Under the pieces are notes generated by a model, which ran no database searches, was not told where the DNA came from, and saw nothing but the letters and a program-made list of their open reading frames with translations. A stretch of 63,585 nt of DNA, counting the filler, from Collodictyon triciliatum (lineage: Eukaryota): assembly GCA_043381765.1 (NCBI GenBank). It is 21 parts of 21 records of this genome, joined end to end, with 100 filler letters (N's around TTAATTAATTAA, not from the genome) between each part and the next. Parts side by side here need not be neighbours in the genome. Positions count along the whole stretch, not along the records: positions 55,298 to 58,264 come from JBHJMP010007997.1; 20 more parts are not named here. The stretch is one strand, 5' to 3'. Each line of letters opens with the position of its first letter. Positions within the stretch are counted from its first letter, which is position 1. The position numbers and the translations under genes are program-made. Shown in pieces: positions 55,298 through 58,264 of this stretch.

Positions 55298-58264
55298 GAA
55301 GAGTTGAAGAAAATTAAAGAACTGGACGAATTGGCTGTCACTCCGTTTATGATTTTCATGGCAGCCACCACCCTGCCGTCCATACTGAAGGAAAGAGCTG
55401 AGTCAAAATCAATAGAGAATAAAAAAATCACGAGAACAGATTTTCTGGACAGGTTTTCGAGAAGATGGTTCGAACGCGAAAGAGAAAAGCTTGAAAACAA
55501 TTTGTCGTTAAAGCAAAAAATGCCAGAAGATTTGGAAAGGCTGCTTTGGGTGAAGTGCAAAAAAATTGCAAAGTTGATGTATGAAATAGAACGAAAACCT
55601 TCGCTTCAATATTGCTACGTCGAAGGTGAACTACCAACTAACCCACAGTACGACGAATTTTTCAATCCTAATCCAGACCATATGATTAATGGTAAACGAA
55701 CTTACTCTGTCTTCGTATTGCGATGTGCACCCATTAAGAAATCTAGTGCCACAACATATGAGTTCTTCCACAAATCGCTCTACGAATTCTTTGCTGCTGA
55801 GAACATCAAAGATGAAATTAATAGTTCCGATGCGGAAAATAAAGATTCTGCCGAATCATCAACGGAAGCTCAAAATGCTGCAACGTCCTCTGAACCCGCG
55901 AATTCAAAGCATGGAGAATTTGATGCAAAATCACCAAGCACGATGCTGTCCCATGTTGTTAATTCCGTGATGAAATCGAAAGTTGCGACAAATATTGCTC
56001 TTGATAAAAAGCTTGAGCCTGCTATTCTGCTCAATCTGAGTAAAAAAGTCAACAAAGACAAAGCCTACAAAGACAATCTCTTTTCAATCATCGAGCAGTC
56101 CAAGATAGATGCAAGCAAAGCGCAAGCTGCGTCAAATGCCATCACAATTCTGAACTATGCTGACATTTCATTCAGTGGCATGGATTTCAGAGGGATTCAA
56201 ATTCCAAATGCCGACATGTCACAGTCTGTTGCTGATGGTGCTGACTTCACTGGTGCCAACTTGGAGGGTGTTTTGTTCTATAATGCGTGCATTTCAAACT
56301 GTGTTTTTGACAATGCGATTATGAAAGGCGTTAATTTTGGTCGCTTACCTTTGTTTTTGGGTCATAAAAGTACTGTCAATAGTGTTTGCAGTATTCAAGG
56401 ACCGAATGGTGAAAATTGGCTGGCTTCTGGAAGCGACGATAAAACAATACGTATCTGGGATGTAACCACAGGAAACCCAATCGAAATATTAAAAGGTCAT
56501 ACAGATTTTGTTAATTGTGTTTGCAGTATTAAACGACCGAATGGTGAAAATTGGCTGGCTTCTGGAAGTATGGATAAAACAATACGTATTTGGGATGTAA
56601 CCACAGGAAACCAAATCAAAACATTAGAAGAACATACAGAAGGCGTTACTAGTGTTTGCAGTATTCATGCGCCAAATGGTGAAAACTGGTTGGTTTCTGG
56701 AAGTGATGATAGAACAATATGTATTTGGGATGTAAAAACTGGAAGCCTTATCAAAACGTTAGAAGGTCATATGAAAGATGTCAATAGTGTTAGCAGCATT
56801 CAAGAACTGAATGGTGAAAACTGGCTGGCTTCTGGAAGTGGCGATAAAACAATACGCATTTGGGATGTAGAAACTGGAAGCCTTATCAAAACGTTAGAAG
56901 GTCATATGAAAGATGTCAATAGTGTTTGCAGTATTCAAGGACCGAATGGAGAAAATTGGCTGGCCTCTGGAAGTGGTGATACAACAATACGTATTTGGGA
57001 TGTAGGCACAGGGAATCAAGTCAAAACGCTAGAAGGCCATTTTGAAGGAGTTACAAATGTTTGCAGGATTCAAGCACCAAATGGTGAAAATTGGCTGGCT
57101 TCTGGAAGTTATGATAAAACAATACGCATTTGGGATGTAGTCACAGGAAACCAAATCAAAACATTAGAAGGTCATATAGATTATATTTGGAGTATTTGCA
57201 GTACTCAAGTGCTAAATGGTGAATTCCCTTCATTTGAATCGAATATAGAAGGGAAGAAAGGACCGATTGGTGAATATTGGTTGACCTCGGGAGGAAACGA
57301 CAGAAAAATTTGTATTTGGGATGTGGCCAGAGGAAACCATATCAAAACATTAGAAGGACACAGAGATGAAGTCAGAAGTGTTTGCAGTATTCAAGGACCG
57401 AATGAGGAAAATTGGTTGGCTTCTGGAAGTCATGATAAAACAATACGTATTTGGGATGTAGTCACAGGAGACCAAATCAAAACATTGGAAGGTCATACAG
57501 GTGAAATCAACAGTGTTTGCAGCATTCAAGGAACGGATGGGGGAAATTGGCTGGCTTCTGGAAGTGATGATAAAACAATACGTATTTGGGATATAGTTAG
57601 AGGAAAAGATATCAAAACCTTAGAAGGACATAAAGATGTTGTCACTAGTGTTTGCAGTATTCAAGGACGGAAGGGTGAAAATTGGCTGGCTTCTGGAAGT
57701 GATGATAAAACAATACGTATTTGGGATGTAGTCATAGGAAATCATATGAAATTGGAAGGTCATACAGATGTTGTCACTAGTGTTTGCAGTATTCAAGGAC
57801 CGAATGGTAAAAATTGGCTGGCTTCTGGAGGTGGTGATAAAATAATACGTATTTGGGATGTAGCCACAGGAAACCAAATCAAAACATTAGAAGGACATAC
57901 AGATGTTGTCACTAGTGTTTGCAGTATTCAAGGACCGAATGGGGAAAATTGGTTGGTTTCTGGAAGTGGTGATAATACAATACGTATTTGGGATGTAGCC
58001 ACAGGAAACCATATCAAAACATTAGAAGGACATACTGATGTTGTCACTAGTGTTTGCAGTGTTCAAGGACCTAATGGTGAAAGTTGGTTGGCTTCTGGAA
58101 GCAATGATAGCACAATACGTATTTGGGATGTAGCCACAGGAAACAAAATACACAGCCTGAAAAAATCAGAAGTGACCTACAATATAAAGAGCCAATTGGT
58201 CAAGAAAGATAAAACAGAAGTCATCGCAGTGTTCAATAGTACAAGTGATGCGATGAATATGATT
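55298..58264 (+). CDS. NLR-like NACHT(winged-helix)-pentapeptide-WD40 protein, partial at both ends
   Basis: Single open frame: TPFM, YEFFHKSLYEFFAA (NACHT winged-helix motif), AASNAITILN..SFSGMDFRGIQIPNAD pentapeptide region, 13 WD40 repeats. The P-loop lies upstream of the contig start and is not seen. Confidence 0.9.
56357..58156 (+). repeat. 135-nt coding tandem repeat (13 WD40 units)
   Basis: GHxxxVxSVCSIQGPNGENWLASGSxDxTIRIWDVxTG repeated 13 times; same consensus as 1636-2445. Confidence 0.95.
57225..57257 (+). mobile_element. Family A-like micro-insertion, in frame in WD40 repeat 7
   Basis: TCCCTTCATTTGAATCGAATATAGAAGGGAAGA between 18-nt direct repeats at 57207-57224 and 57258-57275 (13/18 identical); net +51 nt. 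Confidence 0.65.

What the first reader, a model, noticed from the sequence alone, without database searches (positions are those of the whole stretch)
57207..57275. Micro-retroinsertion retained in frame inside a WD40 blade of the NLR-like receptor
Seen: repeat 7 of 13 has 17 extra residues (VLNGEFPSFESNIEGKK). At DNA level this is an 18-nt duplication of the repeat's AAGGACCGAATGGTGAA segment around a 33-nt insert containing TTTGAATCGAAT..AAGGGAA, total 51 nt, frame preserved. An 8-bp inverted repeat (TTCCCTTC/GAAGGGAA) brackets the core, and this unit is the most diverged of the array. Inference: a tiny retro-insert was exapted as a loop extension and may shield this unit from homogenisation, a possible route to receptor diversification.
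Basis: partly seen in the sequence, partly recalled or inferred. Interest (0 to 1): 0.72.

Follow-up and report, generated by a model that had tools for sequence, protein, structure and literature searches.

The report
LINE-tail micro-insert in WD40 blade
One blade of a 13-blade WD40 repeat protein carries a 17-residue in-frame extra loop that comes from a 33-base scrap of a retrotransposon tail; it is a neat example of a known process, and nothing shows that the loop has a function.

Summary
Unit 7 of 13 WD40 units (ORF 55304-58264+) has 51 extra bases. An 18-nt duplication of the unit's own sequence (57206-57223 and 57257-57274) flanks a 33-nt core (57224-57256), and the frame stays open.

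The core belongs to a repeat family found throughout the window. That family is the 3' tail of a poly(A) non-LTR retrotransposon (LINE). A metagenome contig shows the same tail directly after a zf-RVT ORF. The window holds 136-nt and about 240-nt fragments of the element, plus four 27-36-nt tail-only copies flanked by 14-22-nt target-site duplications. A profile built from nine other copies ranks the insert 9th of 121,508 window positions, with a chance probability of about 2-5e-5.

AlphaFold places the insert as a low-confidence loop between strands A and B, on the reverse face of the propeller and away from the usual variable face. Unit 7 is the most diverged unit, at synonymous and non-synonymous sites alike (dN/dS about 0.4).

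Not shown:
- Retention in mRNA. No run covered the site, and 48-nt and 42-nt GT-AG candidates exist.
- Any function of the loop.
- Any causal shielding from homogenisation.

No NTPase domain is visible in the window, so "NLR" rests on relatives only. This is a new example of a known kind.

The parts
55304..58264 (+). Visible ORF: a short stretch resembling the C-terminal end of a NACHT region, a linker, pentapeptide repeats and 13 WD40 units of 45 aa. Both ends run into masked N stretches.
57170..57355 (+). WD40 unit 7 (62 aa), the only unit with an insertion
57206..57223 (+). Left copy of the 18-nt duplication (target-site duplication). It has 4 of 18 mismatches to the unit consensus and encodes QVLNGE.
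57224..57256 (+). 33-nt core derived from the LINE 3' tail, in sense orientation. It encodes FPSFESNIEGK.
57233..57244 (+). 12-mer TTTGAATCGAAT, the exact hallmark of the LINE tail family
57224..57231 (+). 5' arm of the 8-bp inverted repeat (TTCCCTTC)
57248..57255 (+). 3' arm of the inverted repeat (GAAGGGAA). It overlaps the AAGGG block that follows the 12-mer in the family.
57257..57274 (+). Right copy of the 18-nt duplication. It has 2 of 18 mismatches to the consensus and encodes KGPIGE.
3626..3759 (-). 136-nt 5'-truncated copy of the same LINE 3' end (81% identity to L003, E 8e-30)
17579..17819 (-). Copy of the LINE 3' end, about 240 nt, aligned in two pieces
10743..10770 (+). Tail-only micro-copy (28 nt) with a 15-nt TSD at 10728-10742 and 10771-10785
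25220..25247 (+). Tail-only micro-copy (28 nt) with a 17-nt TSD at 25203-25219 and 25248-25264
25759..25785 (-). Tail-only micro-copy (27 nt) with a 14-nt TSD
38985..39020 (+). Tail-only micro-copy (36 nt) with a 22-nt TSD
835..2841 (+). Paralogue: pentapeptide repeats, 6 WD40 units and a Sel1-like end. No unit carries an insert. An in-frame TAG stands at the conserved W of its first unit.

Best explanation
The 51 extra bases are an old, extremely 5'-truncated copy (33 nt) of the 3' tail of a resident poly(A) non-LTR retrotransposon. It most likely inserted by target-primed reverse transcription, which duplicated 18 nt of the target. The target was the stretch of WD40 unit 7 that encodes the loop between strands A and B. 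Because 33 + 18 = 51 is a multiple of three and the tail has no stop in this frame, the reading frame survived. The product is most likely a 17-residue flexible loop on the reverse face of the propeller. I read it as a tolerated passenger, not as a recognition determinant.

Shown: the insert's structure, its family membership, the LINE nature of the family, and the loop position in a model. Inferred: the insertion mechanism, retention in mRNA, and neutrality.
For: 1. Family membership.
- The exact 12-mer occurs 6 times in the window against 0.06 expected.
- A weight matrix built from 9 other copies scores the insert at 15.9 bits. That is rank 9 of 121,508 positions, directly after the 8 window copies used to build the matrix. 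The next unrelated site scores 9.8 bits.
- Only 3 of 3.69 million shuffled positions reach that score. This gives about 2e-5 for the 33-nt core and about 5e-5 for all 51 nt.

2. The family is a LINE tail.
- Of 23 metagenome loci with the 18-nt tail motif, one (L003) carries the tail plus A10 directly after an ORF with a zf-RVT match, E 3.9e-5.
- That ORF is 54% identical to P0121, whose zf-RVT match passes Pfam's cut-off at 36.4 bits.
- L003 aligns to window 3626-3759 (81%, E 8e-30) and to 17579-17819.

3. Same format as other copies. Four tail-only copies of 27-36 nt are flanked by TSDs of 14-22 nt. Here the figures are 33 nt and 18 nt.

4. Paralogous empty sites. Of 35 unit spacings in gene A, gene B and the Diphylleia rotans relative P0122, 32 are 45 aa, 2 are 44 aa and only this one is 62 aa. 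BLASTP against P0122 shows the insert as a clean 17-residue gap.

5. Loop position. In the AF2 model (mean pLDDT 83.8, 52 strands) residues 308-325, LNGEFPSFESNIEGKKGP, have pLDDT below 50. They lie between strands 299-307 and 328-335. A-B loops lie on the reverse face (PMC3195729 passage).

6. Constraint. Unit 7 against the other units gives dN 0.26-0.27, dS 0.59-0.72 and a ratio of 0.38-0.45. The array-wide ratio is 0.50. GH, the WD-equivalent motif and the core residues are kept.
Against: - This copy has no clear poly(A) run. Its tail reads AAGGGAAG and then merges into the right duplicate.
- The duplicates are only 12 of 18 identical.
- The 9 nt before the 12-mer do not continue the LINE tail contiguously. 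A 3-nt indel separates the 12-mer from AAGGG.
- A plain blastn of L003 against the insert matches 16 nt at E 1.6. Significance comes from the profile test and the prior definition of the site.
- The reverse-transcriptase domain itself was not seen. LINE identity rests on zf-RVT, the poly(A) tail and the TSDs, and L003 comes from an unidentified organism.
- No RNA or read data cover the site.
- No NTPase part lies upstream in the window, and the neighbouring paralogue has a premature TAG. The gene may therefore be a truncated relic in which any insert is tolerated.
Confidence: 0.65

Rival explanations
1. The insert is removed from the mRNA as a very short intron that the insertion itself created, so it adds little or nothing to the protein.
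For: In-frame GT-AG pairs exist. Removing 57209-57256 (48 nt) would leave a near-canonical loop with one extra residue. Removing 57219-57260 (42 nt) would leave three extra residues. The GT at 57209 lies within the clustered changes of the left duplicate.
Against: No GT-AG pair removes exactly the 51 nt. The candidates have purine-rich 3' ends and no CTAAC-like branch site. The single intron I could infer by homology in this window is about 138 nt long and has CTAAC; one example is no census. The frame through the insert is open.
Confidence: 0.1
2. The segment is LINE-derived but did not arrive by endonuclease-driven target-primed reverse transcription. A scrap of LINE cDNA or RNA was captured as filler during repair of a break, with a local duplication made by the repair synthesis.
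For: This copy has no clear poly(A) run. Its 5' end is odd: an 8-bp inverted repeat and 9 nt that do not continue the tail. Four clustered changes lie in the left duplicate.
Against: The 18-nt duplication and 33-nt size fall within the range of the four clean TSD-flanked copies. The orientation and the 3' end of the tail are as in those copies.
Confidence: 0.12
3. One reading: the loop was exapted for function. By breaking homology it protects unit 7 from gene conversion, which promotes receptor diversification.
For: Unit 7 has the highest dS (0.59-0.72 against a mean of 0.35) with an unchanged dN/dS. The duplicates are as far from the consensus as the unit is, as expected if homogenisation stopped at about the time of insertion.
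Against: There is a single case. A3 and A13 are also diverged without an insert. The array as a whole is only 78-86% homogeneous. The loop is modelled as disordered on the reverse face, away from the sites that diversify in HET-E. None of the 25 other blades in genes A and B, and none of 19 blades in P0122, carries such a loop.
Confidence: 0.12
4. The gene is a decaying 5'-truncated fragment. The open frame is a leftover, so 'retention in frame' carries no meaning.
For: No NACHT or other NTPase domain was found in the ORF or in the roughly 9 kb upstream. A (GATA)24 microsatellite lies directly upstream. The neighbouring paralogue has an in-frame TAG. No transcript-derived near-identical protein was found.
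Against: At least 987 codons are open in 38% GC DNA. dN/dS among units is about 0.4-0.5. WD40 hallmark residues are intact in all 13 units. Upstream exons beyond the window part I searched cannot be excluded.
Confidence: 0.25

Closest known systems
5'-truncated poly(A) LINE insertions made by target-primed reverse transcription (L1-type)
   Same: The 3' end of the element is present, variable TSDs of 14-22 nt flank the copies, other copies have an A-rich tail, and a zf-RVT ORF lies upstream of the tail.
   Different: Most tail-bearing copies in this window are only 27-36 nt long. The four copies bounded by TSDs begin within 2-6 nt upstream of TTTG, not at scattered truncation points. The clade of the element was not determined, and no RT or endonuclease domain was seen.
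Transposable-element sequence incorporated into coding exons (exonisation or in-frame insertion)
   Same: A TE fragment lies inside an ORF with the frame kept. Search listing only, for example PMC2394776 and PMC6924539; I did not read these papers.
   Different: This is a direct insertion into an existing exon of a tandem-repeat domain, not splicing-in of an intronic element. Translation has not been shown.
Fungal NACHT-WD40 NLRs (HET-E, HET-D and NWD family) with concerted evolution of WD repeats
   Same: A long array of highly similar WD40 units, with variable positions after GH and around the B-C turn (PMC1805685 passages). Relatives carry NACHT.
   Different: The unit is 45 aa with a conserved QGPNGENW A-B loop. 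Pentapeptide repeats precede the array. The window gene shows no NTPase domain. The nearest full-length relative, P0122, comes from the protist Diphylleia rotans. Homogeneity here is only 78-86%.
Lineage-specific loop extensions in WD40 propellers, such as the RACK1 knob
   Same: An extra loop of 8-19 residues is tolerated in one blade and can be disordered (PMC3195729 passage).
   Different: The RACK1 knob is a D-A loop on the top face. This one is an A-B loop on the reverse face, and here the DNA origin is traceable.
Introner-like elements (transposons that create new introns). This comparison is recalled, not checked by a call.
   Same: A mobile insert with a TSD sits inside coding sequence, and GT-AG candidates exist.
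   Different: The family is a LINE tail found mostly outside ORFs. Its copies do not carry splice sites at their ends.

Membership tests
Non-LTR retrotransposon (LINE) 5'-truncated insertion | The insert is homologous to the 3' end of a LINE | tested here: met
   12 of 12 core bases plus AAGGG match. The weight matrix puts the insert at rank 9 of 121,508 positions, and 3 of 3.69 million shuffled positions reach its score. The tail follows a zf-RVT ORF in L003.
Non-LTR retrotransposon (LINE) 5'-truncated insertion | A target-site duplication flanks the insert | tested here: met
   18-nt copies at 57206-57223 and 57257-57274. Both match the unit consensus (14 of 18 and 16 of 18). They are 12 of 18 identical to each other.
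Non-LTR retrotransposon (LINE) 5'-truncated insertion | Poly(A) or an A-rich 3' end | tested here: inconclusive
   Other copies end in A5-A12. This copy ends in AAGGGAAG and then merges into the duplicate.
Non-LTR retrotransposon (LINE) 5'-truncated insertion | The source element encodes a reverse transcriptase | tested here: inconclusive
   Only the zf-RVT C-terminal domain was seen: L003 at 24.7 bits, below the 27.5 cut-off, and its relative P0121 at 36.4 bits. No RVT_1 or endonuclease domain was found among the 86 window ORFs scanned.
Non-LTR retrotransposon (LINE) 5'-truncated insertion | An empty site exists | tested here: met
   Paralogous empty sites only: 34 of 35 unit spacings lack the insert. 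An orthologous empty site was not available.
WD40 beta-propeller blade | WD40 profile match, GH and WD-type motifs, and four strands per unit | tested here: met
   PF00400 at E 6e-122 in 12 stretches. The model has 52 strands for 13 units. Unit 7 keeps GH and IWD.
NLR / STAND receptor (NACHT-repeat architecture) | A central NACHT or NB-ARC NTPase domain with a P-loop | tested here: not met
   No Pfam NACHT match in ORF residues 1-352. tblastn with 12 NACHT-bearing relatives found only residues 427-486 of P0028 matching 55304-55492. None of the 66 upstream ORFs in 46.1-55.3 kb matched. The masked stretches (2 x 44 nt) are too short to hide it.
NLR / STAND receptor (NACHT-repeat architecture) | A C-terminal superstructure-forming repeat domain and full-length NLR relatives | tested here: met
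   The WD40 array is present. Relatives that cover 96-99% of the ORF carry PF05729. Residues 371-1025 of P0122 align to the NTPase parts of P0091 and P0228, which carry NACHT and NPHP3_N annotation (E 3e-41).
Spliceosomal intron | Removed from mRNA at GT-AG borders | not testable with these tools
   GT-AG candidates of 48 and 42 nt exist. No run covered the site.
Exapted (functional) TE-derived coding segment | Purifying selection on, or conservation of, the inserted codons across lineages | not testable with these tools
   No orthologue with the insert was found.

The most novel reading that the evidence does not exclude
The LINE of this genome makes a discrete class of tail-only nano-copies of about 28 nt, roughly one per 7 kb in this window. 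They would arise because reverse transcription ends, or jumps, at a fixed point in a 3' hairpin (CCCTT...AAGGG). These copies carry AATAAA and may be recruited as poly(A) signals at gene ends. One variant copy, in which the hairpin loop was skipped and AATAAA was broken by a 3-nt indel, was kept in frame in a WD40 blade. There it ended that unit's homogenisation. If so, nano-retro-inserts would be a regular source of loop-length novelty in repeat receptors.
Probability: 0.12. Interest if true: 0.6.

Novelty: new member of a known kind. Interest (0 to 1): 0.36.

Why it matters
This is a clean case in which the DNA origin of a protein loop can be read directly. A 33-nt retrotransposon tail plus its 18-nt target duplication became 17 in-frame residues in one blade of a strictly 45-residue repeat; 32 of 35 unit spacings measured are exactly 45. 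It shows that extreme 5' truncation can make LINE insertions small enough to survive inside coding repeats. It also gives an internal marker, the two duplicate copies, for dating when one unit left the homogenising pool. Its wider importance depends on two things not shown here: that the segment is translated, and that such tail-only copies recur in other repeat genes of this genome.

Tried and rejected
- RNA and read test. The look-up of sequencing runs returned 12 runs, all with small shares (0.05-0.12). I laid 4 of the 12 (X1 and X4 RNA, X2 and X3 DNA) on 57100-57400 at 90% likeness. Their contigs cover only the conserved parts of neighbouring units. Nothing covers 57188-57253, so retention, splicing and assembly correctness stay open. 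One X3 contig lays 26 nt (57258-57283). Its loose end before 57258 reads like an insert-free blade with the same rare GPIGEYW loop. The piece is under 31 nt and may come from another organism or a paralogue, so it is a lead only.\n- Whole genome. None is held, so no genome-wide census was possible.\n- Earlier findings of this scan. Nothing was returned.\n- Papers. A search for the 12-mer, its reverse complement and its RNA form gave 3 hits, which from their titles look unrelated. A five-term search on in-frame non-LTR insertions gave 0 papers.\n- Rfam. 0 matches in the window at gathering thresholds.\n- Metagenome scan. 22 of the 23 loci look like chance or bacterial coding hits; only L003 shows the tail context.\n- Transcript-derived proteins carrying the insert. 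The best identity is 49% among the 120 rows listed, and 46% among the 120 rows. Proteins above 2000 aa and below 346 aa were not searched with the unit 5-8 query.\n- 39-aa query across the insert against 1.84 billion representatives. It gave P0122, which matches only the part after the insert, and P0123. P0123 is a repetitive 533-aa ORF sharing GEFPS...EG (43% over 24 aa, E 8.7e-5, with the score raised by 5 repeats). I take P0123 as chance.\n- Variant genetic code. I considered this because several ORF pairs are split by a single stop. I rejected it because the in-frame stops are a mix of TAG, TAA and TGA, and the TAG in the paralogue stands at a TGG (W) position.\n- Tandem 51-nt duplication as the origin. 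Rejected on reading: the core resembles neither flank of the unit.\n- Hairpin in the three long tail copies. The minimum-energy fold pairs CCCUU with AAGGG in each, but z-scores are -0.19, -0.02 and -0.91. The structure is not supported statistically.\n- Family copies just downstream of same-strand ORFs. 3 of 8 lie within 300 nt, against a null mean of 0.92 (P about 0.05). This is not significant.
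Full report
**What is there**

The window is eukaryotic-looking DNA (38% GC) with 44-N masks about every 3.07 kb. No whole genome is held for it. The ORF 55304-58264(+) runs into masks at both ends. It holds pentapeptide repeats (PF00805, E 3.6e-8) and 13 WD40 units of exactly 45 aa (PF00400, E 6e-122). Unit 7 (57170-57355) has 62 aa. Tandem Repeats Finder splits the 135-nt array at 57223/57312.

Read directly, the extra 51 nt are laid out as follows:
- Left copy CAAGTGCTAAATGGTGAA, 57206-57223.
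- A 33-nt core, 57224-57256.
- Right copy AAAGGACCGATTGGTGAA, 57257-57274.

Both copies align in register to the unit consensus, with 4 and 2 mismatches of 18. They differ from each other at 6 of 18. The 8-bp inverted repeat is present at 57224-31 and 57248-55. The local hairpin folds at -11.2 kcal/mol, and 5 of 200 shuffles fold as well.

**What the core is**

The 12-mer TTTGAATCGAAT occurs exactly 6 times in the window against 0.06 expected. With looser matching, nine copies share (AC)TTTGAATCGAAT followed by AAAGGG and an A run.

Four of these copies are bounded by clear direct repeats. The inserts are 28, 28, 27 and 36 nt long, with target-site duplications of 15, 17, 14 and 22 nt.

A scan of metagenome contigs for an 18-nt form of the motif gave 23 loci. 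Twenty-two look like chance hits. One, L003, carries the motif plus A10 at the end of a 3' UTR, directly after an ORF with a CCHC-type zf-RVT match (E 3.9e-5). That ORF has one relative, P0121 (54% identity), whose zf-RVT match passes the Pfam cut-off.

L003 aligns to window 3626-3759 (136 nt, 81%, E 8e-30) and to 17579-17819. Coding fragments of the element lie at 3110-3475 and 36444-36542.

A weight matrix built from the nine other copies scores the WD40 insert at 15.9 bits. That is rank 9 of 121,508 window positions, directly behind the eight window copies used to build the matrix. The best unrelated site scores 9.8 bits. Only 3 of 3.69 million shuffled positions reach 15.9 bits. For a pre-defined 33-51-nt segment the chance probability is about 2-5e-5.

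**How it got there**

The format (33-nt tail fragment, 18-nt duplication, sense orientation) matches the four clean copies, so target-primed reverse transcription is the simplest mechanism. This step is inferred. Two features are atypical:
- There is no real poly(A) run.
- The 9 nt before the 12-mer (TTCCCTTCA) do not continue the tail contiguously.

In all three long copies the minimum-energy fold pairs a CCCUU block about 30 nt upstream with the AAGGG block after the 12-mer. The z-scores are weak. The insert could therefore be a tail copy in which the loop between these arms was skipped. That would also explain its inverted repeat. I put this at about one in three. A rival origin is capture of a LINE cDNA scrap during break repair.

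In the insert, AATAAA is broken to AATATAGAA by a 3-nt indel. Five of the nine other copies have AATAAA intact.

**Age and selection**

Unit 7 is the most diverged unit:
- Mean nt identity to the other A units is 72.5-73.9%, against 78.5-86.2% for the rest. Its nearest unit is B3 of the paralogue, at 80%.
- Distance from the consensus is 20-22%, against 4-18% for the other 17 units.

The excess divergence shows at synonymous and non-synonymous sites alike. Unit 7 has dS 0.59-0.72 and dN 0.26-0.27, a ratio of 0.38-0.45. The array means are dS 0.35 and a ratio of 0.50. Unit 7 is therefore older, or less homogenised, but not decaying. Its GH and WD-type residues are kept.

The two duplicate copies are 11% and 22% from the consensus, about as far as the unit itself. 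This fits an insertion dating from about the time unit 7 was last consensus-like. That agrees with the idea that the insert hinders gene conversion. However, the case is single and rests on 18 nt, and units A3 and A13 are also diverged without any insert.

**Where it sits in the protein**

I made an AlphaFold2 model of residues 330-987 with a 52-row alignment (mean pLDDT 83.8, pTM 0.55). It has 52 strands, four per unit. Residues 308-325 of the model (LNGEFPSFESNIEGKKGP) have pLDDT below 50. They lie between strand 299-307 (IWSICSTQV, strand A) and strand 328-335 (EYWLTSGG, strand B).

In WD40 propellers the A-B and C-D loops lie on the reverse, larger face. The D-A loops and B-C turns form the top face (passages of PMC3195729). 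In the fungal HET-E family the four positively selected sites are in the d-a loop and the b-c turn, on the top face (passages of PMC1805685). In this array, too, the positions after GH and around the B-C turn are the ones that vary. The insert therefore lengthens a loop on the face opposite the likely recognition surface.

An in-frame, stop-free 51-mer is not rare: one third by length times 0.48 open frames gives about 0.16. I therefore read the loop as tolerated, not as shown to be exapted.

**Uniqueness**

A 39-aa query across the insert found a 2619-aa relative, P0122. Its source names it as a Diphylleia rotans transcript. It shows an NTPase region homologous to NACHT/NPHP3_N-annotated proteins (E 3e-41), then TPR repeats, and then pentapeptide-like repeats, 19 units of the same 45-aa type and a C-terminal end like that of the window paralogue (read). 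It is 42-44% identical to the window ORF, and the insert aligns as a clean 17-residue gap.

Over gene A, gene B and P0122, 32 of 35 unit spacings are 45 aa, two are 44 aa, and only unit 7 is 62 aa.

**Is it an NLR?**

No NTPase domain was found:
- None in ORF residues 1-352.
- None by tblastn with 12 NACHT-bearing relatives. The only hit was a 60-residue stretch at 55304-55492, E 3.7e-5.
- None in 66 ORFs of the 9 kb upstream.

A (GATA)24 run lies directly upstream. The paralogue at 835-2841 has a TAG at a conserved W. The gene may lack its NTPase part, or it may have distant 5' exons. "NLR-like" holds for the family, not demonstrably for this copy.

**What stays open**

Whether the segment is in the mRNA is unknown. 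None of the runs I laid covers it. In-frame GT-AG candidates of 48 nt (57209-57256) and 42 nt (57219-57260) exist. They look poor beside the one intron I could infer in the window, which is about 138 nt long with CTAAC. No near-identical transcript-derived protein was found.

**Verdict**

Exaptation and shielding are not shown. This is a new example of a known kind, namely a TE fragment kept in frame in an exon. The unusual side aspect is the abundance of tail-only LINE copies of about 28 nt.

Noticed in passing
window 10743-10770, 25220-25247, 25759-25785(-), 38985-39020: These tail-only LINE copies of 27-36 nt begin 2-6 nt upstream of TTTG: 2 nt in three copies and 6 nt in the fourth. They are flanked by 14-22-nt TSDs. 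Nine tail-bearing copies lie in about 61 kb, and seven of them are at most about 36 nt long. This suggests a discrete 5' end, not random truncation.
   Followed up: partly
window 3629(-), 25222(+), 25772(-): Three of eight family copies lie within 300 nt downstream of a same-strand ORF of at least 120 aa (null mean 0.92, P about 0.05). Five of nine copies carry an intact AATAAA. They may act as poly(A)-signal donors, but the association is not significant.
   Followed up: partly
window 835-2841(+): A paralogue with pentapeptide repeats, 6 WD40 units and a Sel1-like C-terminus. An in-frame TAG at 1699-1701 replaces the conserved W of its first unit. It may be a pseudogene or a null allele.
   Followed up: partly
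window 3626-3759(-) and 3716-4729(-): A 136-nt LINE 3' fragment overlaps the last roughly 44 nt and the stop codon of a DOMON/EGF ORF. A second LINE coding fragment lies head-on at 3110-3475(+).
   Followed up: no
window 3716-5467(-): Two tandem DOMON plus EGF-like segments lie in one frame, separated by a single TAA. Other ORF pairs are also split by single in-frame stops of mixed type. Introns or pseudogenes seem more likely than a variant genetic code.
   Followed up: partly
window 55102-55197: A perfect (GATA)24 microsatellite lies directly upstream of the WD40 ORF, where an NTPase-coding part would be expected.
   Followed up: no
window 47600-48110(-): A K+-channel-like gene (Ion_trans) has an intron inferred by homology. 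It is about 138 nt long and reads GTTCGC...CTAAC...CACAG. A second donor, GTACTA, follows the TVGYG motif.
   Followed up: no
P0122 (protein found): A 2619-aa Diphylleia rotans transcript product has an NTPase region, TPR repeats, pentapeptide repeats, 19 units of the same 45-aa WD40 type and the same C-terminal end as the window paralogue. It is the only close family relative found. The fungal (Mortierellomycotina) NACHT-pentapeptide-WD40 proteins are about 32% identical over the full length.
   Followed up: partly
window 57258-57283 (run X3): One DNA contig from a metagenome shows a blade with the rare GPIGEYW loop and no insert. Its match to the window breaks exactly at the right border of the insert. 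Only 26 nt are laid, so this is a lead and not evidence.
   Followed up: no
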